From Patescibacteria group bacterium (GTDB taxonomy: Bacteria; Patescibacteriota; Patescibacteriia; 2-01-FULL-39-33), in assembly GCA_041662745.1 (NCBI GenBank), contig JBAZRV010000001.1, positions 384-64,383 of the forward strand: 64,000 nucleotides of DNA, given 5' to 3'. The position numbers and the translations under genes are program-made. Positions within the stretch are counted from its first letter, which is position 1. Every line of letters begins with the position of its first letter. Below the pieces are notes generated by a model. That model was given only the letters and a program-made list of their open reading frames with translations, did not search any database and was not told where the DNA came from. Positions 3,867-41,031 of this stretch are shown here, piece by piece.

Positions 3867-6800
3867 TTAATTACAGCCGGCGCCGTCGCAACACTTGCCC
3901 AAACAGCACTTAGTAACTCCGCTGGCGTCAGCTATGGGGAAATCCTTAGTTATTACCCAACTGCCATATTTAAATTGAGTCGTATCAATGGAAGTGGCAA
4001 TCGGTTCCATGCAAGTCTTGGTACAATTCGGTCTAGCGCCGACGATATCCTTACAATTCATATAGCCGAAGGAAACGGGATTAACCTTATTAACCGGAGA
4101 GGGCGTAATTAAACCCAAATCAGTAACGCAACCAGCGGTATTATATTCATCATTGATTTTATAACGGCATTTATTGAATTCAATATTAGCCTGATAGCCC
4201 CAACCTGATGGCAACGTTGCTGGATCAGCTGCCGCGTTCTGCGGACCGGCGCCCGGCAAGTAACAATTCTGCGTAATTGATTCTAAACCTGAACCGGCAC
4301 CGGGCGCATAAGTTACCGCCTGATCGTAAGGATTATGATTAAGTAGGGCCGCGCTATAATCAATCAGGCCGTCACCCGAACCCTGACCGTAAACATCGCC
4401 TTCATCTAAATTTTTTACGCTGGCCCAATAACCGACGGGATTAGCGTTTTGCGTCACTGTATTTAACATTAGGAAGCGGATATAAAAATCCCTGTCCGCC
4501 AAGCCCTCGCCATAACCGAATCCCGGCTTTAAGGTTACGGGATTCATTAAACGATCGAAAGAAAAAACAATGGGATCGCCAAAAGTTTCATTAATATCCT
4601 GCCCCCAACGTTGATCACCCTTCGGCTGAATAGAAAATAACAATGGCGCCTTGTCGTCAATAACTGTTGAAACGAAAAATGACCAGGAAAAATCATCACC
4701 TTGAGCCGAATTAGTATTATAAGTCGGTTTTTCAATGCCATTATCAATGGTAAAAGTATCGTTTACCAGGTAGGGATTAGCCAAGCCGGAGTAACCATAA
4801 AGCGTACCGGTGACGACTCGCCCCGTATGGCCTTCGGCTATGCCCACTATTTTACCCTTATCATCGGTTGCGCTGGTATAGTTGCCATTTAAGGAGTTAC
4901 CGGCCATATCCATGATACCGACAGTGCTTTCTAAGGCAGCCTTCGGATAATAAACGCCATTCTTCTGACAGCGATCATAAGCGTCGCCGTCACATTGGCC
5001 GCCCCAACGCTTGCACCAGCTATTATCACTATCATCTATACCCCCACCTTTGCACGATTGCAAAACAGCCGCAGAAATTACCACCCTGAACGGCTCTGAC
5101 TTAGCAGCCGCTCCAGTCGAAGGGTCAATCCAGCAATATCTTTCTTTGCCGCAAGCATTTTTGCCGCAAGCGTAAATACCGGTCATCTGTACTGTTTTGT
5201 ATTGATTGGAAATTTCATATTTTATCCTATCTGCCGCGATATCGGTCCAAACATCACCGATCTTATTTTGAACCTTAATGGTATTAGACAGACTCAGCGG
5301 GTTAACCGCTTTGTTAAAAGTAACGAAAAAAACGGAATTATTATAAGGATCCGGCGCCGCTCCTTGCGGAGTCTTAAGTTGAGCCTTATCTTTTCCGGAT
5401 AAATCGCCAACAACCGTCATGGTGTTATCAATCGCCGATTTATCAATGCTCAAAGTATTAGCTCCCGCTCCCTTGGGTTCAATAATCAAATATCTAAACA
5501 AACCGATTGATGCGATAGAGACATTCACCGAATTCCTGGCTTCGGAGCTGATAATAGCACTACGCAAATTTTCCAACGTGTCGCTAACATTGGCCGACTT
5601 GATTACGGCGATGTAATTGACAGTTACCGGCTGACCGTCAGCTCCGACTTGGGTTTTAGCGATATTGGCATCGTTAATATAAGCATCGGAAGCAAAAATA
5701 AAATTAATTTTACTGGTGCTGTTATTAATAGTATAAGTATCGCCGGTAACGGCTGTTTCGGCAGTGAACCTCCATTGGCTGCCCCGAGGGAACGTGCCAC
5801 CCTCAGCGGCGATAGTTAAACCATTGCCCAAATCAAAACTTACGCCGTTTACTATAGTAAAAGGTTTACCGCTGAGCGGAGCCGGGGAATCGGCAGAAAA
5901 TACAGCCGTTCTGCCGTCGCTGGAAACAGTAAAATTAGCAGTGCCCGCGCCGAGCTCAAAACCGCTTTGCGCGCTGACATAAGCCTTAAAGCCGGCAGGA
6001 ATATTACCGCCGGAATTAATCAATTCCTTTCTCAGCGGCCGGCCCAAAAAATACTCGCCCTGCAGTTTGATTGGTTTCTCCGCCTTCAGATCAACCAAAG
6101 ATTGAATCGTAGTGGTTGACCGTCCTAACGTAGACTGGGAAGATGCTGAATATAAATCAGGAAGGGTATCGGGGTAGGGATAAACCTCATACTTTACGAT
6201 CTGCGGCGGATCCAAGTCCATTTTGCCGTTGGTTTTGAAGGACCAAGCAAAATAATCCATTTTCCATAACTTAAAGATTGATTCGCCGGTGGAAGAGGCA
6301 ATGATGCCGTTCTTTAAAGTTACCATGAACTCTCGATTGGCGTTATCCTCTTTGCCTAAAAATGATTTAGTCATGAAAACAAAGGTTTTGGCATTGCCCG
6401 GAGTTTGAGTAACGGTTGTATTGGCACCAGCAAAAACCTGAGCAGTGAAATCGCCTGTTCCTAAGCATTTACGCGGAGTGGAGGCCGTATCAGCTTCACA
6501 AATTTCAATATTATTGCTAGCGCTATTAGAACAATAACCCTCGGCATTGGGGACGCAAATACTATCCGATTTAATATTTGATTTAAAAGTTACGACAATT
6601 CTGGTGTCAATTGACACATCCGCCTGATTAGGCGCAGGATAAACGCTTTCAATCGGCCCATTGCCGATGCCGCCTCGCCCCCAATCATCCGGTCCGCCCG
6701 GTATGCCTCCGCCTCCGCCCGCGCCGCCGCCTCTTGGACCGAACAATCCCATCAGCCAAGTAGTAATGGCAAAGGCCGCGAAAATGATTATTAAACCGAT

Positions 6801-7184
6801 AATAGCGTTATAAATGATTTTTTTGGCTTTATTGACTTTGTCCGGATCTCCGCCGGCCGTCATCCAAATAAAACCGCCATAAATAATAAGTAATAGTACG
6901 ATTACGCCCAATAAACCAAAAATAACCTGCAAAACCCGGCCAATATAAGTAGTAAGCGAGGTTTCGGTAGCGATTCCGGCAGCTTGTCCGACAGCCTGCA
7001 AATTAGCGTCTTGCGCTAAGACCGAGCTGGCGAAAAGAAAACCGAAAAAAGAAATAAAAAACACCAAAATAAGCGCCAACGCTCGTTTGGTGTTTCCAGT
7101 CACGATCAAAAACGACTTTAAATTCCCGCCCCGGGCGGAATTTGATCGCGAGAACTTTTGCATAGGGACAAAAGCTTTTGACAT
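3867..7184 (-). CDS. Giant secreted/cell-surface protein (1105 aa), paralog of the upstream gene. Same N-terminal signal peptide + VirB2/TrbC-like two-helix pilin module, Gly-rich linker, large Cys-rich ectodomain
   Basis: ORF track 1105 aa. N-terminus ...VLQVIFGLLGVIVLLLIIYGGFIWMTAGGDPDKVNKAKKIIYNAIIGLIIIFAAFAITTWLM matches the upstream paralog at protein level and about 80% at DNA level (3540-3660 vs 6780-6900). Many paired Cys, C-terminus ...KCCLGKCCDGAGCN. Confidence 0.7.
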   Translation of the reverse strand: MSKAFVPMQKFSRSNSARGGNLKSFLIVTGNTKRALALILVFFISFFGFLFASSVLAQDANLQAVGQAAGIATETSLTTYIGRVLQVIFGLLGVIVLLLIIYGGFIWMTAGGDPDKVNKAKKIIYNAIIGLIIIFAAFAITTWLMGLFGPRGGGAGGGGGIPGGPDDWGRGGIGNGPIESVYPAPNQADVSIDTRIVVTFKSNIKSDSICVPNAEGYCSNSASNNIEICEADTASTPRKCLGTGDFTAQVFAGANTTVTQTPGNAKTFVFMTKSFLGKEDNANREFMVTLKNGIIASSTGESIFKLWKMDYFAWSFKTNGKMDLDPPQIVKYEVYPYPDTLPDLYSASSQSTLGRSTTTIQSLVDLKAEKPIKLQGEYFLGRPLRKELINSGGNIPAGFKAYVSAQSGFELGAGTANFTVSSDGRTAVFSADSPAPLSGKPFTIVNGVSFDLGNGLTIAAEGGTFPRGSQWRFTAETAVTGDTYTINNSTSKINFIFASDAYINDANIAKTQVGADGQPVTVNYIAVIKSANVSDTLENLRSAIISSEARNSVNVSIASIGLFRYLIIEPKGAGANTLSIDKSAIDNTMTVVGDLSGKDKAQLKTPQGAAPDPYNNSVFFVTFNKAVNPLSLSNTIKVQNKIGDVWTDIAADRIKYEISNQYKTVQMTGIYACGKNACGKERYCWIDPSTGAAAKSEPFRVVISAAVLQSCKGGGIDDSDNSWCKRWGGQCDGDAYDRCQKNGVYYPKAALESTVGIMDMAGNSLNGNYTSATDDKGKIVGIAEGHTGRVVTGTLYGYSGLANPYLVNDTFTIDNGIEKPTYNTNSAQGDDFSWSFFVSTVIDDKAPLLFSIQPKGDQRWGQDINETFGDPIVFSFDRLMNPVTLKPGFGYGEGLADRDFYIRFLMLNTVTQNANPVGYWASVKNLDEGDVYGQGSGDGLIDYSAALLNHNPYDQAVTYAPGAGSGLESITQNCYLPGAGPQNAAADPATLPSGWGYQANIEFNKCRYKINDEYNTAGCVTDLGLITPSPVNKVNPVSFGYMNCKDIVGARPNCTKTCMEPIATSIDTTQFKYGSWVITKDFPIADASGVTKCCLGKCCDGAGCN

Positions 7185-17575: not shown

Positions 17576-20494
17576 TCAAACCACAATACTGACCAACTTG
17601 CCTTTAATAAAAATAACTTTCTTGGGCTCGCCAGTCAAATATCTTTTAACGTTTGCATCATTAAGCGCCGCGGCCTTGGCTGTCTCCTCCGTTACATCCG
17701 TCGGTAAAACCAATTTTGCTCTAATTTTGCCATTAACCTGCACTGGAATTTCCTTTTCAGCATCAACGACTTTAGCCGGATCATACTCTGGCCATTTTTC
17801 TTTAAAAATACTAGTTTCGTGCCCGAGCTGATACCATAATTCTTCACACATATGTGGAGCAAAAGGAGATAAGATAATTAGAAACGATTTTTTGATAAAT
17901 TCTAAAGAAGCCTCATCTATTTTTTGTTTATCTACTTTTTTTTCTACTTCATTTTTCCCTGTATTCCAAAAATTTATCAAAATCATAAATTGAGAAATCG
18001 CGGTATTAAACTTCATTTCTTCTATATCTTCCCCAGCTTTCTTTATTATCCTATGCATTTCTCTAATCATCCAACCTTCATTAGGTGATATCTTATTCCA
18101 CCAATCTTTATCCTGATAAAATTCCCAAACCTTATTCAAAAACCGATGCACGCCCAAAATATTTTTTGTACTCCAGGGTTTCATATCTTCCAAGGGGCCC
18201 ATAAACATTTCATACATGCGGAAAGTGTCGGCGCCATATTCTTTCAGGATGTCATCGGGATTAACCACATTGCCGCGAGACTTAGACATCTTCTCTCCAT
18301 CCTCTCCCAAAATCAAACCCTGATTAACCAGCTTGGCAAACGGCTCCTCAAACGGCACTGCTTCAATATCAAATAGAACCATATTCCAGAACCGAGCATA
18401 AAGCAAATGCAAAACCGCATGCTCAGCACCGCCCAAATACAAATCAACCGGCAACCAATACTTCAATTTTTCTTGATCGGCGAAAGCTTTGTCATTGTGC
18501 GAATCAATATATCTTAACCAATACCAAGAAGAACCGGCCCATTGGGGCATAGTGTTGGTTTCGCGCTTAGCCGGACCGCCGCAGGTAGGGCAAGTCGTAT
18601 TAACCCACTCGTCAATGGTCGCGAGCGGCGACTCGCCCGTTCCGGTCGGTTCGTATTTTTCTACTTCCGGCAAAGTCAAAGGCAAGTCTTTTTCCTCAAG
18701 CGGCACAATACCGCATTTCTCGCAGTGAACTAACGGAATCGGCTCGCCCCAATAGCGTTGGCGCGAAAATACCCAGTCGCGCAATTTATAATTAATCGCT
18801 TTCTGTCCGCAGCCCTTCTCTTCCAGCCAATCAGTCATCTTACCAATTGCTTTGGCCGGCGCCAAACCATTTAAAAATTCAGAATTAACCATCAAGCCAT
18901 TATCAACATCGGTATAGGCGATATCGCCTTTTTTAATCCGCTCCAACCAAATATCCATTTCGGCATGAACCATAAAATCCAAAGTCAGCTCGTCCGGATT
19001 CTTCCATAAAATCTCATTCTGAGCTTCCTTTTCCTCGTCAGAAATATCCACCTGTTCCTCATCAATTAAATCAAACTCTACTAAGTTGGTATAAGAAACA
19101 CGATTAACATCTTTGTGATTAGCAAAATATTCGGCTCGCACCTGTCCGCCCAAAATCTTGCCATTAGCAAGATTCTTATAACCGGTTTCTTCCAGAACTT
19201 CCCGCTTGGCCGCTGCCAGTAAATCCTCATCTTGGCCAACACCGCCCATCGGAAAAGTAACCCAGTTATATTTGTGGGAATGCAAGCATAAGATTTTTCC
19301 GGTTTTAGGATTTCTAACCACTACTTGGACGTTATGCCTCTCAATTTTTTCCTTGCCAACGACCGGTGGGTTCCTTTTATCGATCCTCTCCGGAATAATC
19401 ACTTCAATAATGGGCAAATCAAACTTCTTGGCAAACTCGAAATCCCGCTCATCATGCGCCGGCACCGCCATAATCGCGCCCGTGCCATAGGTCGCCAAAA
19501 CATAATCGGAAATCCAGATAGGAATTTCAGTATTATTGACGGGATTAATCGCCTTAATGCCTTTTAATTCAACGCCGGTTTTGTCTTTATTCAATTCTGT
19601 CCTTTCCAAATCTGATTTATTTTTAGCAGTTACAATATAATCTTCAACTTCAGGAAAGTTACTGATTTTATCTTTCAATTCTTGAACCAATTTATGCTCC
19701 GGCGCCAAAACCATATAAGTCGCGCCGAATAAAGTGTCGGGGCGCGTAGTATAAACCCTGATTTTTTCATCACTATCGGCAATCTTAAAATCAACTTCCG
19801 CTCCCTCGCTTCGGCCGATCCAATTTCTCTGCAAAGTTTTGATTGATTCCGGCCAAGCCAGTTTTTCAACTCCCTCTAACAATCTATCGGCATAAGCGGT
19901 AATCTTTAACATCCATTGGCGCATATCGCGGCGCTCCACTGCCGTACCGCAACGATCGCATTTGCCGTCTTTGACTTCTTCATTAGCTAAACCGGTCTTG
20001 CAAGACGGACAGAAATTTATCGGTATGGTGGCTTCATAAGCCAAGCCCTTTTTAAATAATTGCAAAAAAATCCACTGCGTCCATTTGTAATATTTCGGGT
20101 CAGTCGTATCCACTTCCCTGTCCCAATCATAGGAGAATCCCAGTGATTGGATTTGGCGTTTGAAAGTAGCGATATTGGCCTCGGTCGTAATTCGCGGATG
20201 CGTGCCGGTTTTAATGGCATAATTTTCGGCCGGCAAACCAAAGGCGTCCCAACCCATGGGGTGTAAGACATTAAAACCCTTGAGACGCAAATAACGGGAA
20301 TAAATGTCAGTTGCCGTATAGCCTTCCGGATGACCGACATGGAGTCCGGCTCCTGACGGATAAGGGAACATATCCAAAACATACTTTTTAGGCTTGACAC
20401 TAAAATCTTCGGCCTGATCAATTTTGGTGTTCAACCACTTGTCTTGCCATTTTTTTTCTCCGCCCGAAATGATGAATTCTTTGTATGAAGCCAT
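17576..20494 (-). CDS. leuS: Leucyl-tRNA synthetase carrying a ~135-aa Nudix hydrolase insertion inside the CP1 editing domain
   Basis: HVGHPEGY (HIGH) and KMSKS present; editing motif [13 protein letters not shown]. After …FDLPII comes an extra segment with a canonical Nudix box [23 protein letters not shown] (residues ~385-480, coordinates ~19000-19340) before the normal …NSEFLNGL…[12 protein letters not shown]. Confidence 0.9.
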
Positions 20495-20746: not shown

Positions 20747-21490
20747 ATGACCGAAAGTAAAGACGGGGCAAATATTGGTAAACCCCAAAACGCTGACGAT
20801 TATGAGAAGGCTACTCGCTATAAATTAATAGAATATTGCGCTGGAGGCAACAGTAATACCTGCTTAGCATTCTTAGCGAATTACTGCTCCACGCGCTTTT
20901 ATCCTCGTCGTCTTGATTTTAACGCTTATAGCGTCAAAGAACATCCAACAGAGGATCTTAGCGCCTTAACTCCGCTTACCGCTGCTTGCGGCTTAACATT
21001 GACTGGCAGCTTCGCCAGACGAAGCGAAGAAGATAAACGGTTAGAAATCGTCAAAAAGTTATTGCAATACCATACCGATCCCAATTTCCAACCGACCGGC
21101 AGTAGCTTCTGGAATACGCCTCTCATGATCGCGGCTTGGATCGGCTACGAAAAAATAACCGAACTGCTTCTGCGATATGGCGCCGCGATCAATTGTTCTG
21201 ATCGCCATAATTCTACTGCCTTGATTTATGCGGCCGGCCAAGGCCACAAAAAAATCGTTGAACAATTGCTTGAGGCTGGCGCTGATCCAGAAATAATCAA
21301 TAGCCGAGGCTGGTCGGCCATTCACTATGCAGTGGCCAAAGCCTACATTGGAATAATCAGAATTTTAATGAAAAAACAAGGTATCACTCCTGAGGAACTG
21401 GGCCTGATTGAAAAAAGCGTTTTCCAGAAAACCAACGTTAAAATCGTTAGCCCGACAATCGTCCAAAACACCTATCCGGCGCCAGGCTGA
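20747..21490 (+). CDS. Ankyrin-repeat protein
   Basis: Tandem ~33-aa ANK repeats (TPLMIAAWIGYEKITELLLRYGAAIN…STALIYAAGQGHKKIVEQLLEAGADP…). Confidence 0.8.
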   Translation: MTESKDGANIGKPQNADDYEKATRYKLIEYCAGGNSNTCLAFLANYCSTRFYPRRLDFNAYSVKEHPTEDLSALTPLTAACGLTLTGSFARRSEEDKRLEIVKKLLQYHTDPNFQPTGSSFWNTPLMIAAWIGYEKITELLLRYGAAINCSDRHNSTALIYAAGQGHKKIVEQLLEAGADPEIINSRGWSAIHYAVAKAYIGIIRILMKKQGITPEELGLIEKSVFQKTNVKIVSPTIVQNTYPAPG

Positions 21491-35344: not shown

Positions 35345-38300
35345 CTAAAGCTTTTCAATTTTTATCTTTACTTTTTCGCCGTTAATACTGACTGCCTTGG
35401 CATCGCTATCAGCCTCTATGATTTCCTGAGTTAGGGTGGATTTTTTCAATTCCTCATTAAGCAGAGCATCGCCAAAGACTTTTTTAACCGTTTCTCCTTC
35501 ACTCTGCCAGCTCAGTTTAATCCGGTCTTTAATGGTCAAGCCGGCATCCTTGCGCAAGGTATTAACAGTCCTGACAAATTCGCGCCAAGCGCCTTCAACT
35601 TTCAATTCATCAGTCAGATCGGTATCCAATTCCAATTTAATCTCCGTCCCGCCGGCAAACTCTAAATTCTTAAGATTCAGTTTGTCCTTAATCAAATTTA
35701 TGAGTTGCTGTTTATATGGTTCTTCGGCTAACGCCAAACCGAAAACCGTGGCCTTGTTAAGCGGTTGCCTGATTTTTATCTTAGCTTCGGCGCGGGCGGC
35801 TAAGCCCAACTCTTCTATGGCAGCGGCCAAACCCATCTGCTCTTTCAATTTGTCGCTGTAAGCGCTCGCCTCCTTGCTACCGTATAATTCCTTATCAATT
35901 TCCGGCCAACTCTCCAAATGGACCGATTCCTTCTCACCGCCGATCTGTTTGTAAACGTATTCGGCGACAAAGGGCGTAAAGGGTGCCATGATCTTGGATA
36001 ATTCCAGCAGGACGAGCCGGAAAGTGGCGATGGCTTGATTCTTGTCCGCTTCATCATCGCCCTTCAAGCGTTCGCGCGACGATTGCAGCCAACGAGTGGA
36101 GAACTCGTCTATGAATTCAGCCAAGGGGCGGGTGGCGCGGGGCAAATCATAAGCTTCCATGTTCTTGGTCACTTCCAAAAGCAACAGATTTAACTTTACC
36201 GACAGCCATTTATCCAAAATATTATCGCTTTTAACCGGCTCGGACGCCGCTGTCCCAGAAACTTCGTATAACTTATAAAAACTCAGAATATTATTCAACA
36301 GCATGGTAACCTTTTGCATTGCTTCTTTGACGGCGTCATCGGAAAAATTCAAATTTTCCGCAGTCATGACTGGCGCGGTCAAAAGATAAAAACGCAAGGC
36401 GTCGGCGCCGTATTTGTCCATGATTATTTCCGGTTCCGTGTAATTCTGCAAGCGCTTAGACATCTTCTTGCCGTCTTCAGCCAGAACAATGCCGTTGACA
36501 ATGACGTTTTTGAACGCTTCGCTGTCTCGTACGGCTGTAGCAATGATGTGGAGATAATAAAACCAAGCGCGCGTCTGATCCACGCCTTCGGCAATAAATT
36601 GCGCCGGAAAACCGGCCAGGAATTTCTCCTGATTCTCAAACGGATAATGCTGTTGGGCGTAAGGCATGGAACCGGAATCAAACCAAGTGTCCAGCACATC
36701 GGGAATTCTCGTCATTTTTTGGCCGCATTCTTGACAAACAATCTGCCATTGGTCCACGAAATGCTTATGCAAATCGGTTATCTTCTGTTTTATCTCCAGC
36801 ACTTGCCCTTTCTCCACCGCCAAATCCCTAAAGGTTTGGCTCGGTTCGTAGCCGTAAAGCCTGCCCAAAAACGACTTGATCGTGTCTTCGTGGCTGACCA
36901 ATAAAATATTCTTGCCTTCGTACTTTTCATTCAATTCTTGATACAGGGCCAGGGTCCGCTCCGTCACTTGCCGAACGCTTTCACCGGCCGGATAAGCATT
37001 ATCCCAATCGCTTTTCCATTTGGCGATAACCGCCTTGGCTTTATCGTCAACATCGGATTGTTCTTCCAGCTCGCCGGCATCAAGCTCGTTCAAGCGGGCG
37101 TCAAAAACCAGCTCTGCGCCCGTAACTTCGGCGATGAGCTGAGCCGTTTCCTTGGCGCGCAAGACTTCGGAAGAAACGATCAAATCAATTTTTTTATCTT
37201 TCAATCCGTCGGCGGCAACTTTAATTTGTTCTCGGCCGTTAGCTGTCAATGAGTAAACACCCAAACCGCTGCTGAACACGTGTTTAATATTCTTTTCCGC
37301 TTCGCCATGCCTGATGGCGAAAAAATTATTCCGATCTATTTTCAGCTCTTCCAGCTCAGCCACGCTGCCGATGACTTTTATTTCACCGCACTGGCACCGC
37401 CACAGCGGAATGACGCTGGCCCAAAATCGCTGACGGGAAATTGACCAGTCGCGCGCGCCCTCCAGCCATTTGCCGAAACGGCCTTCCTTAATATGCGCCG
37501 GCGACCAATTAATATTCTTGGCGGTTTCCAACGCCTTCGCTTTGATGTCTGTTACTTTGACAAACCAGGAACTGGTGGCGTAATTGATCAGCGGCGTATC
37601 GCACCGCCAGCAATGCGGGTAGCTATGTTCGTATTCGGCGCTGGCAAAAAGCAGTTTGTGTCTGTCCAGATATTCAATGACTTTTTTGTCGGTTGCCTTG
37701 GTATCTTCCGCCGGCTTGACATTCAGGCCGGCAAAATCAGCCACTTCATCCTTAAAATTCCCTGCCAAGGTCACATTCTGAATGAAAGCCAAATTTTCTT
37801 CTTGGCCCAATTGCATATCTTCTTCACCATAAGCCGGAGCGATATGCACTACGCCGGTGCCATCATCGGTGGTGACGAAATCAGCGGCTACGATAGTGTA
37901 TAAATTTTCTTTATTGGGCAAATCTTTGTCTAAATAATATGGGAATAACGGCTTATACTCTTTGCCAATCAATTCTGAACCCTTGAACTTGTCCAAAACC
38001 CGGACTTGCTGGCCGGCAAAAACTTTCTCCAAAAGCGCTTCAGCCAAAATCAATTTTTCACCGGGTCTGACCACTGACATCGTAGCAGTTATCTTATTCC
38101 CGCCTTCAACATCATAAGCTTCCATTTTCTTATTGGCGCCAGAACTGACGACAACATAGTCAATATCTTTTCCCACCGCAAGCGCCACATTGCCCGGCAG
38201 AGTCCAAGGCGTGGTCGTCCAAGCCAAAACATAAGCGCCCGGCTCATCAACCAACTCAAATTTAGCCGTCACCGACAAATCCTTAATATCCTTATAACCC

Positions 38301-38884
38301 TCACTAACCTCCTGCTGGCTCAGGGTTGTTTCGCATCTGGGACAGATATGCATGGACTTATAACCTTCATAAACCAAACCCTTGTCATACAATTCCTTAA
38401 ACACCCACCAAATTGATTCCATGTAAGACAAATCCATGGTCTTGTAAGAATCGTCCATATCCGCCCAGCGGCCGAAACGGGCGATGGTCTTTTTCCATTC
38501 CTCAACATAAACCAAAACCTTGCTGCGGCAGTATTCGTTGAATTTACCAATGCCGTAGTTTTCAATATCTTTCTTGCTCTTAAAGCCCAGTTCTTTCTCC
38601 ACGATGTTTTCAATGGGCAGGCCATGGCAATCCCAACCCCAGCGACGCTCCACATAACGGCCGCGCATCGTCCAAAATCGCGGCACCACGTCTTTCATCA
38701 GACTGGCGACCATATGGCCGTAATGCGGAGTACCGGTGGCAAACGGCGGGCCGTCATAAAAACTGTAAGCCTCGCCAGCCCTGGTCTGTTCCAGTGATTT
38801 CTCAAAAATTTTATTATCCGTCCAAAATTTTTGGATCTCTCGCTCTCTTTCCGGAATCGGATTAACCCACTTTTTTTCTTCCAT
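35345..38884 (-). CDS. ileS: Isoleucyl-tRNA synthetase with a ~180-aa histidine-phosphatase (PGAM-like) domain inserted between the Zn-knuckle Cys pairs
   Basis: Start at MEEKKWVNP. HYGH (HIGH) and KMSKR (KMSKS) present. Insert …FFAIRHGEAE…LTANG…IVSSEVLRAKETA…LVSHEDTIKSFL (RHG…H catalytic pattern) between WRCQCGE and CQECGQ, coordinates ~36790-37330. Confidence 0.9.
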   Translation of the reverse strand: MEEKKWVNPIPEREREIQKFWTDNKIFEKSLEQTRAGEAYSFYDGPPFATGTPHYGHMVASLMKDVVPRFWTMRGRYVERRWGWDCHGLPIENIVEKELGFKSKKDIENYGIGKFNEYCRSKVLVYVEEWKKTIARFGRWADMDDSYKTMDLSYMESIWWVFKELYDKGLVYEGYKSMHICPRCETTLSQQEVSEGYKDIKDLSVTAKFELVDEPGAYVLAWTTTPWTLPGNVALAVGKDIDYVVVSSGANKKMEAYDVEGGNKITATMSVVRPGEKLILAEALLEKVFAGQQVRVLDKFKGSELIGKEYKPLFPYYLDKDLPNKENLYTIVAADFVTTDDGTGVVHIAPAYGEEDMQLGQEENLAFIQNVTLAGNFKDEVADFAGLNVKPAEDTKATDKKVIEYLDRHKLLFASAEYEHSYPHCWRCDTPLINYATSSWFVKVTDIKAKALETAKNINWSPAHIKEGRFGKWLEGARDWSISRQRFWASVIPLWRCQCGEIKVIGSVAELEELKIDRNNFFAIRHGEAEKNIKHVFSSGLGVYSLTANGREQIKVAADGLKDKKIDLIVSSEVLRAKETAQLIAEVTGAELVFDARLNELDAGELEEQSDVDDKAKAVIAKWKSDWDNAYPAGESVRQVTERTLALYQELNEKYEGKNILLVSHEDTIKSFLGRLYGYEPSQTFRDLAVEKGQVLEIKQKITDLHKHFVDQWQIVCQECGQKMTRIPDVLDTWFDSGSMPYAQQHYPFENQEKFLAGFPAQFIAEGVDQTRAWFYYLHIIATAVRDSEAFKNVIVNGIVLAEDGKKMSKRLQNYTEPEIIMDKYGADALRFYLLTAPVMTAENLNFSDDAVKEAMQKVTMLLNNILSFYKLYEVSGTAASEPVKSDNILDKWLSVKLNLLLLEVTKNMEAYDLPRATRPLAEFIDEFSTRWLQSSRERLKGDDEADKNQAIATFRLVLLELSKIMAPFTPFVAEYVYKQIGGEKESVHLESWPEIDKELYGSKEASAYSDKLKEQMGLAAAIEELGLAARAEAKIKIRQPLNKATVFGLALAEEPYKQQLINLIKDKLNLKNLEFAGGTEIKLELDTDLTDELKVEGAWREFVRTVNTLRKDAGLTIKDRIKLSWQSEGETVKKVFGDALLNEELKKSTLTQEIIEADSDAKAVSINGEKVKIKIEKL

Positions 38885-39190
38885 ACTGTTATTTATGATT
38901 ACTGTTTGTTTAAAATAAAAAACACCAACTTGGCTGACCGGAGCCCTCGCGGGCGGTACCATCTCGGTGTTTGACTTGATTTCAGCTGTTACGGGCTGAC
39001 CGGCCGATTTTACTTTCCGTTACAAACGGGTTTCTTTCGGCAGCTCCAATGGTGATAACCACTGTCGGGCGCTGTTATTGATTGTTTAACTTGCTTATAC
39101 GATATTTTCAATATAACAAAAATCAAATAAAAAGTCAAAAATAAAAGTCGCCACTGCCGATGGCCTGGCGACTGAACTTACTCGGACTGA
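38885..39190 (-). promoter_or_regulatory. Putative T-box leader upstream of ileS
   Basis: Minus strand contains AGAUGGUACCGCCCGCGAGGG (cf. T-box GGGUGGUACCGCGG). A hairpin AACACC…GGUGUU + UUUUUUAUUUU lies just upstream of the start. Confidence 0.4.
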
Positions 39191-39197
39191 AATTATA

Positions 39198-39740
39198 TTA
39201 CTTACGTGTCTGCGTATCAGCATTAACCCGTAATTCGGCGTTGCGGGTCATAACCGAACCGGTGTCGTTGTCCACATAACAAAAATAATAGTCGTCATCT
39301 TCAAGGCTGATTTGCGGCCAGCTAAGGGTTGGAGATTGCGCCGTGGGATTATCAACCGGCAGATAAATCTTGCACAACGGGCAATGATTGCGTCGGCACC
39401 ATTGATAGCGCAGGTTATTGCCCACGGCCACCACGGTCAAAGACACCGCCTGTCCTTCATTGACAGTGAGATCATCGGGTTGGCGGATGATCATCGGCGG
39501 CATTTCCATCTCACCCCCCCCTGCGACGCCGCAACAAAAGCCGTCTTCAGTGCCGACTTCAGGGCAGGCATGATAAGCGCCGCTATTATAAAATTGGATC
39601 ACCCGCAATAATTCCGCAAGCGAGATTATGCCGTCCCGATCAACATCGGCGTCATGAAAATTATTTATCTCCGCCACTATTGGAAACAAACCGACGGCTA
39701 AGATAAAAACCAAGATCAGCAACAAGGCCCTGCATCTCAT
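39198..39740 (-). CDS. Secreted protein with dockerin/EF-hand-like Ca-binding motif and an Ig-like (I-set-like) domain
   Basis: Signal peptide; DVDRDGIISLAELLRVIQ; Ig-like …PDDLTVNEGQAVSLTVVAVGNNLRYQW…DDDYYFCYVDNDTGSV…. Confidence 0.6.
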   Translation of the reverse strand: MRCRALLLILVFILAVGLFPIVAEINNFHDADVDRDGIISLAELLRVIQFYNSGAYHACPEVGTEDGFCCGVAGGGEMEMPPMIIRQPDDLTVNEGQAVSLTVVAVGNNLRYQWCRRNHCPLCKIYLPVDNPTAQSPTLSWPQISLEDDDYYFCYVDNDTGSVMTRNAELRVNADTQTRK

Positions 39741-40353: not shown

Positions 40354-41031
40354 ATGAATTTGGGCAATAGCAAATACCAAAATCAATATCTGCATGCTGA
40401 CGCCGCAGTCTTTACGGTCGAAGACCGTAAGGTCAAGTTGCTTTTGGTGCGCCGTTCCCGCAAACCCTACATTGGACAGTGGTCGCTGCCGGGTGGAGGA
40501 ATTTACCGCACAGAATCAGCTAAACAGGCGATAAAAAGGGAATTGGCATACAAGACTGGATTGAAAAATCTCTATCTGGAAGAATTCGGCGTCTTTAGTG
40601 AGCCGAAACGCGATCCACGCGGCCGCATCATCTCAATCGCCTTTCTCGCCTTACTAGATAAGAACAAAGTGTCGCTATTGCAGAAAACACCCAAAACCAT
40701 GGGCGCGAAGTGGTTCGACATAAAAAAGTTGCCGCCTATAAAATGGGACCACAAAAAAATCACCAACTTGGCTATTGCAAAGCTGCGCAAGCGACTTTTG
40801 GAATCCAACATTGCTTGCCGGCTGTTGCCGAGATACTTCACGCTGCCAGAATTGCATAAGACTTATGAAATCATCCTTGGTAAACAACTCGATCGTCGCA
40901 ATTTCCGCAAGAAATTCCTCAAGCTGGGCTTGATTATCAAGACAGAAAACAAGGAACGCGGCAGTAGGAACCGTCCGGCCGCCTATTACAAGTTCAAGAC
41001 CGAACAGCATCAGGATATTTCCATCTTTTAA
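40354..41031 (+). CDS. Nudix hydrolase with C-terminal winged-helix-like extension (NrtR-like architecture)
   Basis: Nudix-like box GGGIYRTESAKQAIKRELAYKTGL plus a ~90-aa basic C-terminal tail. Confidence 0.6.
   Translation: MNLGNSKYQNQYLHADAAVFTVEDRKVKLLLVRRSRKPYIGQWSLPGGGIYRTESAKQAIKRELAYKTGLKNLYLEEFGVFSEPKRDPRGRIISIAFLALLDKNKVSLLQKTPKTMGAKWFDIKKLPPIKWDHKKITNLAIAKLRKRLLESNIACRLLPRYFTLPELHKTYEIILGKQLDRRNFRKKFLKLGLIIKTENKERGSRNRPAAYYKFKTEQHQDISIF

What the first reader, a model, noticed from the sequence alone, without database searches (positions are those of the whole stretch)
18990..19345. Leucyl-tRNA synthetase with a Nudix hydrolase domain inserted in the editing (CP1) domain
Between the conserved editing-domain motif [13 protein letters not shown] and the downstream …NSEFLNGL…[12 protein letters not shown], LeuRS carries ~135 extra residues. 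These contain a textbook Nudix box, [23 protein letters not shown], preceded by beta-strand-like [17 protein letters not shown]. Canonical bacterial LeuRS has ~35 residues at this position. Synthetases make Ap4A and other dinucleoside polyphosphates as side products, and Nudix enzymes are the classic Ap4A/NTP-derivative hydrolases. A cis-fused Nudix module could hydrolyse such by-products, or non-cognate aminoacyl-adenylates. IleRS in the same window carries a different inserted hydrolase (see the next finding), so this looks like a lineage-specific theme.
Basis: partly seen in the sequence, partly recalled or inferred. Interest (0 to 1): 0.7.

Follow-up and report, generated by a model that had tools for sequence, protein, structure and literature searches.

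The report
Nudix hydrolase nested inside leucyl-tRNA synthetase
A complete, apparently active Nudix pyrophosphatase domain sits inside the proofreading domain of an otherwise normal leucyl-tRNA synthetase; I found no paper describing it, although it occurs in at least 80 (114 confirmed matches) species of the tiny-genome CPR/Patescibacteria bacteria, where it is swapped between genes like a cassette.

Summary

It is not a one-off. All 80 GTDB species loci examined, almost all labelled Patescibacteria lineages, carry it at the same site. The catalytic glutamates are 98-99% conserved across 286 family domains. The LeuRS synthetic and editing motifs stay invariant in 55 of 55 hosts.

The family is small (312 clusters) and mostly embedded in LeuRS, with up to three copies per protein. 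Some members are free-standing, and two of the four examined sit beside leuS or argS.

Insert history is discordant with host history. LeuRS genes 86% identical in the core carry inserts only 28% identical. The same loop also holds a second Nudix lineage, unknown domains, or nothing.

The substrate is unknown. Ap4A-type dinucleoside polyphosphates are the best guess, but the support is weak. I found no paper describing this. I rate it a new variant of known kinds, with moderately high interest.

The parts
17576..20494 (-). leuS: 972-aa leucyl-tRNA synthetase carrying the nested domain. It is 100% identical to a protein NCBI names 'MAG: leucine--tRNA ligase [Patescibacteria group bacterium]'.
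   Evidence: ORF; Pfam; P0010; E 9e-226 to T. thermophilus LeuRS 1H3N.
20327..20341 (-). HVGHP (HIGH signature, aa 52-56) of the synthetic site.
   Evidence: Invariant in 55 of 55 Nudix-bearing LeuRS.
19397..19828 (-). N-terminal part of the CP1 editing domain (aa 223-366), up to the insertion point.
   Evidence: PF13603 matches aa 223-372 to profile positions 1-146 of 185.
19733..19750 (-). TTRPDT threonine-rich editing motif (aa 249-254).
   Evidence: T249, T250, R251, D253 and T254 are invariant in 55 of 55 Nudix-bearing LeuRS; P252 is P in 49 of 55.
19442..19459 (-). AHDERD editing motif with the conserved aspartates (aa 346-351).
   Evidence: H347, D348, R350 and D351 are invariant.
18917..19396 (-). 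Nested Nudix domain (aa 367-526). It is equivalent to a whole free-standing family member, including its N-terminal leader ([17 protein letters not shown]).
19178..19246 (-). Nudix box [23 protein letters not shown] (aa 417-439). It contains E423, R431, E432, E435 and E436.
   Evidence: Conservation across 286 family domains: E432 99%, E435 98%, E436 99%, R431 93%, E423 90%.
19100..19129 (-). Family signature [10 protein letters not shown] (aa 456-465). An aromatic pair lies 17-18 residues after the box, followed by a basic loop in the position of the Nudix 'X-loop'.
   Evidence: K461 98%, N464 93%, R465 94%, position 456 Y 56% / F 39%. X-loop position taken from PMC5389931.
18785..18916 (-). 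C-terminal part of CP1 after the insert (aa 527-570; [19 protein letters not shown]...).
   Evidence: Aligns to T. thermophilus LeuRS from residue 379 on and to insert-less P0022.
18278..18292 (-). KMSKS loop (aa 735-739). It follows 'GEDGE' directly, so the leucine-specific domain is absent.

Best explanation
The gene encodes a working LeuRS (aminoacylation plus CP1 editing). A whole small Nudix enzyme has been grafted into a surface loop of the editing domain, giving a three-level nesting: Nudix inside CP1 inside the Rossmann fold.

The nested domain belongs to a small, CPR-restricted Nudix subfamily that is mostly found embedded in LeuRS. It keeps every metal-binding and catalytic residue of the Nudix box. 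It also has a near-invariant basic loop (H-K-x-x-N-R) where Nudix enzymes read the 'X' part of their substrate.

I infer that it is an active pyrophosphohydrolase. It would be made 1:1 with the synthetase and held next to its nucleotide- and tRNA-handling sites. It most likely cleaves a phosphate-rich nucleotide. Dinucleoside polyphosphates such as Ap4A or Ap3A, the known side products of aminoacyl-adenylate chemistry, are the leading candidates.

Shown:
- the domain's identity, fold and boundaries;
- conservation of the Nudix residues and of the host motifs;
- the distribution;
- the mosaic evolution.

Inferred:
- catalytic activity;
- any functional coupling to LeuRS;
- the substrate.

Rough probabilities: an active Nudix domain nested in a functional LeuRS, about 0.85; the substrate being an Ap(n)A-type compound, about 0.3.
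For: Domain identity:
- Pfam NUDIX 49.4 bits against a cut-off of 21.1.
- AF2 pLDDT 94.8 alone and 91-94 inside the full-length model (pLDDT 89.3, pTM 0.82, no low-confidence linkers).

Selection:
- Catalytic residues are 90-99% conserved in 286 domains.
- Within the window's insert type, mean insert identity (0.60) is close to mean LeuRS core identity (0.62).

Intact host:
- HVGH, KMSK, T249/T250/R251/D253/T254 of TTRPDT, and H347/D348/R350/D351 are invariant in 55 of 55 hosts.

Specific tie to LeuRS and other synthetases:
- Only 312 clusters match in 1.84 billion representatives, and most of the best 150 are LeuRS or LeuRS fragments.
- 80 of 80 GTDB loci are embedded at the same site.
- Some LeuRS carry 2-3 copies, using a second site at the start of CP1.
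- Free-standing P0144 lies 2 nt upstream of a LeuRS::Nudix gene, and P0279 lies 13 nt downstream of argS.
- The family is also nested in a ProRS.
- Stand-alone mini-CP1::Nudix proteins exist.

Substrate lean:
- Profile hits to the AvrM14 decapping Nudix, lupin and Aquifex Ap4A hydrolases, Dcp2, DIPP and RppH.
- Aromatic residue 17 aa after the box, where Ap(n)A hydrolases carry their specificity tyrosine.
Against: - No activity data exist.
- No curated Nudix subfamily is reached. The best NCBIfam score is 27 bits against a cut-off of 116.
- The closest structure has undetermined function.
- The position-456 aromatic is Phe rather than Tyr in 39% of members.
- LeuRS is not known as a strong Ap4A producer (my recollection, not checked here).
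- ArgRS, which neighbours one free-standing member, needs tRNA to activate its amino acid, so it is a poor Ap4A source (general knowledge).
- The same loop accepts unrelated cargo, and the same Nudix sits in a non-synthetase (M17 aminopeptidase). The site may therefore just be permissive.
- One free-standing member sits next to fpg, which hints at nucleotide-pool sanitation instead.
- The tools return no coordinates, so the distance from the Nudix site to the editing or synthetic pockets could not be measured.
Confidence: 0.45

Rival explanations
1. Passenger enzyme. The Nudix is an ordinary housekeeping hydrolase (for example nucleotide-pool sanitation of the MutT type). In streamlined CPR genomes it has merely been parked in a structurally permissive loop of an essential, constitutively expressed gene. 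It works independently of LeuRS.
For: - The same loop holds a second, unrelated Nudix lineage (P0037/38), two unknown domains (P0034/44, P0050), small inserts, or nothing, within LeuRS genes at least 73% identical.
- Other CPR LeuRS carry Ser_hydrolase, GIY-YIG or nucleotidyltransferase-like domains elsewhere.
- IleRS carries His_Phos_1.
- The same Nudix family sits in an M17 aminopeptidase together with GNAT domains.
- Free-standing P0176 lies 4 nt after fpg.
- GC and GC3 of the insert equal those of the host gene.
Against: - The family is small and mostly LeuRS-embedded.
- It was captured at two different LeuRS sites, in up to three copies.
- A free copy sits in an apparent operon with leuS.
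- CP1 plus Nudix persists as a stand-alone unit.
- A pure passenger would not be expected to show this degree of partner fidelity.
Confidence: 0.3
2. RNA-end enzyme. The Nudix acts on the 5' end of tRNA(Leu) or another RNA held by LeuRS, in the manner of RppH or a decapping enzyme. It would remove 5' pyrophosphate or NAD/Np4N caps.
For: - The best sequence-profile hits include the AvrM14 decapping effector (2.4e-8), Dcp2 and RppH.
- The weak NCBIfam hits are RppH and YtkD.
- The domain is embedded in CP1, which binds the tRNA acceptor end (established LeuRS biology).
Against: - All hits are weak and centred on the shared Nudix box.
- RppH family cut-offs are missed by a wide margin (27 against 116 bits).
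- tRNAs normally carry a 5' monophosphate after RNase P processing (general knowledge).
Confidence: 0.12
3. Conflict module. The nested hydrolases are exchangeable cis-acting protection or detoxification modules, directed against nucleotide-like toxins or antibiotics that target synthetases. Conflict-driven turnover would explain their cassette behaviour.
For: - Sharp mosaic: the flanks are 90-100% identical while the insert is 13-47% identical between WIN and P0016/P0017.
- Six insert types plus empty sites occur within one LeuRS clade.
- The cargo repertoire resembles resistance enzymes: ANT(2'')-like nucleotidyltransferase, GNAT, serine hydrolase, histidine phosphatase.
- Mini-CP1::Nudix proteins sit in a viperin-like nucleotide-modifying operon containing a pVip-kinase-like gene.
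Against: - Entirely circumstantial.
- Within a type, the insert evolves as slowly as the LeuRS core, with no sign of diversifying selection.
- There are no flanking repeats or compositional signs of recent mobility.
- Known aminoacyl-adenylate mimics are not typical Nudix substrates (general knowledge).
Confidence: 0.08
4. Non-catalytic module. The Nudix fold serves only as a structural, tRNA-binding or ligand-sensing add-on, like the NrtR or MRP-L46 Nudix domains.
For: - Non-enzymatic Nudix domains exist (PMC5389931).
- An NrtR-type regulator is encoded in the same window.
- A few free-standing relatives have degenerate boxes: Q at the first Glu position and A or M at the Arg position, in P0003, P0007 and P0008.
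Against: - The REx2EE residues are 93-99% conserved in 286 domains.
- The box is perfect in the window protein.
Confidence: 0.05

Closest known systems
Canonical bacterial LeuRS (T. thermophilus 1H3N/2BYT; E. coli 4AQ7)
   Same: Colinear over the whole length (E 9e-226). It has HIGH and KMSKS motifs and a CP1 editing domain with the Thr-rich and AHDxRD motifs, inserted at the bacterial position.
   Different: About 160 aa of Nudix replace residues 363-378 of the T. thermophilus enzyme. The leucine-specific domain (T. thermophilus ~581-636) is missing. No solved LeuRS has a domain at this loop.
PDB 2AZW, MutT/Nudix family protein of Enterococcus faecalis (UniProt Q836H1)
   Different: 17% identity, free-standing, and function listed as undetermined. 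It therefore gives no substrate assignment.
Ap(n)A hydrolases, decapping enzymes and DIPP group of Nudix enzymes (lupin Ap4A hydrolase 1F3Y, NUDT2, Dcp2, AvrM14, RppH)
   Same: Same fold and the same box. These are the top sequence-profile hits. An aromatic residue lies 17 aa after the box, as for the Ap(n)A specificity tyrosine.
   Different: E-values are only 1e-8 to 1e-4. No curated family threshold is reached. The family-specific H-K-x-x-N-R loop and the N-terminal leader are, as far as I recall, not features of those enzymes; this was not compared here.
Other synthetases with nested or appended enzymes in the same lineage (IleRS::His_Phos_1 in this window; CPR LeuRS with Ser_hydrolase, GIY-YIG or nucleotidyltransferase-like domains)
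   Same: Small hydrolase or transferase domains interrupt class Ia synthetases of Patescibacteria.
   Different: Different cargo and different insertion points. Only the Nudix family recurs at several LeuRS sites and in multiple copies.
Published view of PF13603 as an 'insertion-exclusive' domain (Protein Sci 2026, PMC13114784)
   Same: CP1 is itself an insertion into the Rossmann fold of LeuRS.
   Different: That survey reports zero cases of the LeuRS editing domain acting as a host. Here it hosts a Nudix domain in all 80 GTDB species loci examined.

Membership tests
Nudix hydrolase superfamily (Pfam PF00293) | Match to the family HMM above the curated gathering score | tested here: met
   49.4 bits against a cut-off of 21.1, E 6e-13, aa 388-514.
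Nudix hydrolase superfamily (Pfam PF00293) | Nudix box GX5EX7REUXEEXGU with the metal-binding glutamates | tested here: met
   G417-x5-E423-x7-R431-E432-V-x-E435-E436-x-G438-Y439. 90-99% conserved in 286 family domains.
Nudix hydrolase superfamily (Pfam PF00293) | Alpha/beta/alpha Nudix fold | tested here: met
Nudix hydrolase superfamily (Pfam PF00293) | Divalent-cation-dependent hydrolysis of a nucleoside diphosphate-X substrate | not testable with these tools
   Needs enzyme assays.
Ap(n)A (diadenosine polyphosphate) hydrolase subfamily | Conserved tyrosine in the X-loop, ~17 residues downstream of the box (Dunn et al. 1999, as summarised in PMC5389931) | tested here: inconclusive
   Y456 lies 17 residues after Y439 in the window protein. 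Across the family the position is Y 56% / F 39%.
Ap(n)A (diadenosine polyphosphate) hydrolase subfamily | Closest characterised relatives are Ap4A hydrolases | tested here: inconclusive
   Lupin Ap4A hydrolase 2.1e-7 and Aquifex 3.9e-6 by profile. AvrM14 and 2AZW score better, and Dcp2, DIPP and RppH score similarly.
RNA pyrophosphohydrolase RppH / YtkD (NCBIfam equivalogs) | Score above the curated equivalog cut-off | tested here: not met
   Best 27 bits against 116 (NF001938); 25 against 154.4 (TIGR02705).
MutT / 8-oxo-dGTPase (NCBIfam equivalogs) | Score above the curated cut-off | tested here: not met
   MutT1 21.1 bits against 475. The E. coli-type MutT models were not hit by the insert.
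Bacterial leucyl-tRNA synthetase | HIGH and KMSKS signatures, CP1 editing domain with Thr-rich and Asp motifs, anticodon-binding domain | tested here: met
   Pfam PF00133, PF13603 and PF08264. HVGH, KMSKS, TTRPDT and AHDERD are present. E 9e-226 to 1H3N.
Bacterial leucyl-tRNA synthetase | Leucine-specific domain before KMSKS (present in most bacterial LeuRS) | tested here: not met
   The alignment jumps from query 731/735 to T. thermophilus 580/637; the sequence reads [10 protein letters not shown]. This domain is not needed for membership, since Mycoplasma mobile LeuRS also lacks it (abstract of PMC3643597).
Intein or other self-mobile insertion | Hint or homing-endonuclease domains, flanking repeats, or foreign composition | tested here: not met
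   Only NUDIX is found in the insert. No repeats at the junctions. GC 0.427 against 0.426 and GC3 0.450 against 0.449.

The most novel reading that the evidence does not exclude
The CP1 loop of Patescibacteria LeuRS, and equivalent loops in other synthetases, may be a dedicated docking site for interchangeable enzyme cassettes: several Nudix lineages, unknown domains, nucleotidyltransferase-like domains and hydrolases. These cassettes would be exchanged laterally between orthologous leuS genes. The Nudix cassette would act in cis on a synthetase-linked nucleotide, either a by-product alarmone such as Ap4A or a toxic nucleotide analogue. That would make this a previously unrecognised, modular layer of quality control or defence built into the translation apparatus of ultra-small bacteria.
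Probability: 0.12. Interest if true: 0.85.

Novelty: new variant of a known kind. Interest (0 to 1): 0.66.

Why it matters
Synthetase editing domains are textbook examples of inserted modules. A recent survey found them never to act as hosts (PMC13114784). Here the LeuRS editing domain hosts a second, apparently active enzyme in at least 80 CPR species.

If the Nudix activity is coupled to LeuRS, it would be a natural case of a synthetase carrying its own clean-up enzyme for adenylate-derived side products or related nucleotides. That bears on the long-standing question of how cells control Ap4A-type compounds.

The mosaic pattern is also of interest: near-identical LeuRS flanks with unrelated inserts, several cargo types, and up to three copies per protein. 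It offers a tractable system for studying how domain insertions arise, spread and are tolerated in essential genes of minimal genomes.

If the domain turns out to be only a passenger, it still shows how CPR bacteria pack accessory enzymes into core genes.

Tried and rejected
- Single-sequence PDB search of the insert gave only box-level hits to Dcp2 and NudF. Foldseek against PDB gave generic Nudix hits. Neither assigns a substrate.
- NCBIfam: nothing near a cut-off.
- The AFDB50 fold library was unavailable.
- The search for related loci with the broad family alignment failed for lack of a conserved 7-10-column stretch. It was repeated with 8 close sequences, so the GTDB survey covers only the window's insert type and undercounts the family.
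- Suspected that the 273-aa 'half CP1 + Nudix' proteins were LeuRS fragments split by an alternative genetic code. Rejected: the upstream gene is radical-SAM-like and in another frame.
- Looked for flanking direct or inverted repeats and for compositional foreignness of the insert. None found.
- Looked for a second family member and for tRNA genes in the window. There is only an NrtR-type Nudix regulator, and no tRNA gene.
- The near-zero core-versus-insert identity correlation (Spearman -0.006) is partly inflated by how the hits were selected. I rely instead on the specific triplets and on the sliding-window mosaic.
- Five literature searches aimed at a prior description of a LeuRS (or synthetase) Nudix insertion found none. 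A sixth, broader search found only the general domain-insertion survey.
Full report
**What is there.** The region lies in a 972-aa ORF on the minus strand (17576-20494). Pfam finds the class I synthetase core, the LeuRS editing domain PF13603 (aa 223-372, stopping at profile position 146 of 185), the anticodon-binding domain, and NUDIX PF00293 at aa 388-514 (E 6e-13, 49.4 bits against a gathering score of 21.1). The 23-residue stretch [23 protein letters not shown] (aa 417-439, window 19178-19246) fits the Nudix box GX5EX7REUXEEXGU at all positions. The protein is 100% identical to a public entry that NCBI names 'MAG: leucine--tRNA ligase [Patescibacteria group bacterium]'.

**Boundaries.** Against T. 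thermophilus LeuRS (1H3N) the alignment is colinear, except that query residues 367-530 replace residues 363-378. The closest insert-less orthologue (P0022, 803 aa) reads LPIIEVI-SGGDITKE-AYTDIDNG, where the window protein reads LPIIEVI-[IPERIDK...[10 protein letters not shown]]-AYTDVDNG. The insert is therefore aa 367-526 (window 18917-19396). That is about 160 residues, roughly 150 net. Across 120 LeuRS, the distance between the PAHDxxDxxF and (R/K)(L/D)WxxSRQRxWG motifs is 62-75 residues without the insert and 208-217 with it.

**The host enzyme is intact.** In 55 of 55 Nudix-bearing LeuRS, the HVGH and KMSK signatures are invariant. So are T249, T250, R251, D253 and T254 of the TTRPDT editing motif, and H347, D348, R350 and D351. 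The Nudix is an addition to editing, not a replacement for it. The window LeuRS lacks the leucine-specific domain.

**The Nudix looks active and is under selection.**
- Across 286 domains of this family, conservation is E432 99%, E435 98%, E436 99%, R431 93%, E423 90% and G417/G418 98%.
- The family has further near-invariant residues: R386 97%, K461 98%, N464 93% and R465 94%.
- It also has an aromatic pair at 456/457.
- Within the window's insert type (27 sequences), mean insert identity (0.60) is about the same as mean LeuRS core identity (0.62).

**Distribution.**
- Of the 120 best LeuRS hits in the 5.8-billion-protein database, 55 carry a Nudix at this site. Named sources are Patescibacteria, Paceibacterota, Buchananbacteria and Parcubacteria.
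- An exhaustive HMMER scan of 1.84 billion cluster representatives with the insert alone finds only 312 proteins at E <= 1e-3 and 110 at E <= 1e-10. Most of the best 150 are LeuRS or LeuRS fragments with the domain at the CP1 loop.
- In GTDB species representatives, a scan restricted to the window's insert type confirmed 114 loci. In all 80 loci kept, the match is flanked directly by LeuRS sequence on both sides (on one side only in L020, where the contig ends).
- Record titles name Paceibacterota and Kaiser-, Yonath-, Taylor-, Wolfe-, Wildermuth-, Yanofsky-, Kerfeld- and Buchananbacteria. Many titles read 'uncultured Candidatus Saccharibacteria', and a few carry clearly non-CPR labels that I could not verify.

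**Variants and relatives.**
- Some LeuRS carry two or three copies: tandem at the canonical loop (P0141), or one or two at a second site at the start of CP1 plus one at the loop (P0131, P0135, P0292).
- The family also sits in a ProRS (P0216) and, with GNAT domains, in an M17 aminopeptidase (P0278).
- Free-standing proteins of ~160 aa align over the whole insert, including its N-terminal leader. The insert is therefore a whole small protein grafted in.
- Four free-standing members were examined. One lies 2 nt upstream of a LeuRS::Nudix gene. One lies 13 nt downstream of argS, with an IleRS::His_Phos_1 gene about 0.9 kb further downstream. One lies 4 nt after fpg. One lies next to another Nudix gene.

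**Mosaic evolution.**
- The window locus, the insert-less P0022 locus and the P0016 locus have overlapping neighbours: uvrA for the window and P0022; glnA and a LytR-family gene for P0022 and P0016. They are therefore probably orthologous leuS loci.
- P0015 and P0016 are 86% identical to the window protein in the 775-column core, but only 28% identical in the insert.
- P0049 is 60% identical in the core and 81% in the insert.
- P0022-P0032 are 80-83% identical in the core and have no insert.
- One LeuRS clade (at least 73% core identity) contains six insert types.
- In 30-residue windows, WIN against P0016 or P0017 is 90-100% identical in the windows that do not overlap the insert junctions, and 10-57% inside the insert.
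- A second Nudix lineage (P0037/38) occupies the same loop. It is 18-20% identical, lacks the H-K-x-x-N-R loop, and its nearest relatives are other free-standing Nudix proteins.
- Two domains with no Pfam match (P0034/44, P0050) also occupy that loop. A nucleotidyltransferase-like domain (P0060) lies next to it.
- I see no DNA signature of a mobile element. GC and GC3 equal those of the host gene, and there are no repeats at the junctions.
- Replacement by recombination between related leuS genes, or repeated capture and loss, is required. Which of the two applies is not resolved.

**Function.**
- No curated subfamily is reached: NCBIfam gives at best 27 bits against a cut-off of 116.
- 2AZW is listed as 'undetermined' in the Nudix clan survey.
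- A family profile hits, in order: the AvrM14 decapping effectors, 2AZW, lupin Ap4A hydrolase, an oomycete decapping Nudix, a Nudix family hydrolase of unassigned function (3EXQ), dihydroneopterin-triphosphate pyrophosphatase, Aquifex Ap4A hydrolase and Dcp2. DIPP and RppH follow lower down.
- This leans toward enzymes that cleave long polyphosphate bridges. The scores are modest, however, and centred on the shared box.
- The aromatic residue 17 positions after the box coincides with the X-loop position that carries the Ap(n)A-specificity tyrosine. It is Phe in 39% of members.
- The invariant basic H-K-x-x-N-R loop at that place suggests an anionic 'X' moiety. This is my inference.

**Verdict.** The most likely reading is an active Nudix pyrophosphohydrolase nested in a fully functional LeuRS. 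It belongs to a CPR-specific subfamily with an unusual fidelity to LeuRS. Its substrate is undetermined, with Ap(n)A-type compounds the leading but weakly supported guess. The main rival is that it is a housekeeping passenger in a permissive loop.

I found no description of this architecture in six literature searches. A 2026 survey states that the LeuRS editing domain never acts as a host. I rate it a new variant of known kinds, with moderately high interest.

Noticed in passing
window 35345-38962 (-): The 1205-aa IleRS carries a histidine-phosphatase domain (PF00300, E 1.2e-37) at aa 549-721. The same architecture recurs in loci L002-L004, where a 141-aa Nudix gene follows it.
   Followed up: partly
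window 18278-18310 (-), LeuRS aa ~729-739: The LeuRS lacks the leucine-specific domain. 'GEDGE' leads straight into KMSKS, whereas T. thermophilus LeuRS has ~56 more residues there.
   Followed up: no
L091:3063-3884, L092, L093; L001:5001-5822: Stand-alone 273-287-aa 'mini-CP1::Nudix' proteins exist (P0004, P0006, P0217, P0223, P0259, P0273). They have a shortened LeuRS editing-domain scaffold with a degenerate Thr-rich motif, and the same Nudix family nested at the same loop. In loci L091-L093 (P0217) they sit in a conserved operon with a weak radical-SAM-like gene, two CYTH genes and a double nucleotide kinase; two of those three loci also have a Nuc_deoxyri_tr2-like gene. The kinase hits PADLOC pVip-kinase at 7.6e-34. 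L001 (P0006) is similar but not identical. The cluster looks viperin-like and nucleotide-modifying.
   Followed up: partly
proteins P0131, P0135, P0292, P0141, P0143, P0263 (not in the window): Some CPR LeuRS carry two or three copies of this Nudix domain. They use a second insertion site at the Rossmann/CP1 junction (about aa 215-240) as well as the canonical loop.
   Followed up: partly
proteins P0033, P0052, P0087, P0060, P0034/P0044, P0050 (not in the window): CPR LeuRS genes hold other nested cargo. Ser_hydrolase (alpha/beta hydrolase) lies after CP1. GIY-YIG lies inside CP1. An aminoglycoside-2''-adenylyltransferase-like nucleotidyltransferase lies next to the loop. Two ~110-130-aa domains with no Pfam match lie at the very same loop.
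   Followed up: partly
proteins P0216 and P0278 (not in the window): The same Nudix family is nested in a prolyl-tRNA synthetase, between the anticodon-binding and C-terminal domains. It is also nested in a 1318-aa M17 leucyl aminopeptidase, in two copies by my family HMM (Pfam reports one NUDIX stretch), together with two GNAT domains.
   Followed up: no
window 40354-41031 (+): An NrtR-type regulator (Nudix domain plus winged-helix DNA-binding domain, PF21906 at 1.6e-23). It is unrelated to the LeuRS insert family.
   Followed up: no
window 20747-21490 (+), 39198-39740 (-), 3867-7184 (-): Three proteins that seem unusual for a bacterium, though this was not examined: an ankyrin-repeat protein between uvrA and leuS, a 180-aa protein with an immunoglobulin-type domain, and a 1105-aa protein with a T4SS pilin domain.
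   Followed up: no
L028, L060, L061, L078, L080, L085, L086, L088: Several GTDB records that carry the CPR-type LeuRS::Nudix are titled Thermodesulfobacteriota, Gammaproteobacteria or Nanoarchaeota. These are probably mislabelled or contaminated bins rather than real occurrences outside the CPR. This was not verified.
   Followed up: no
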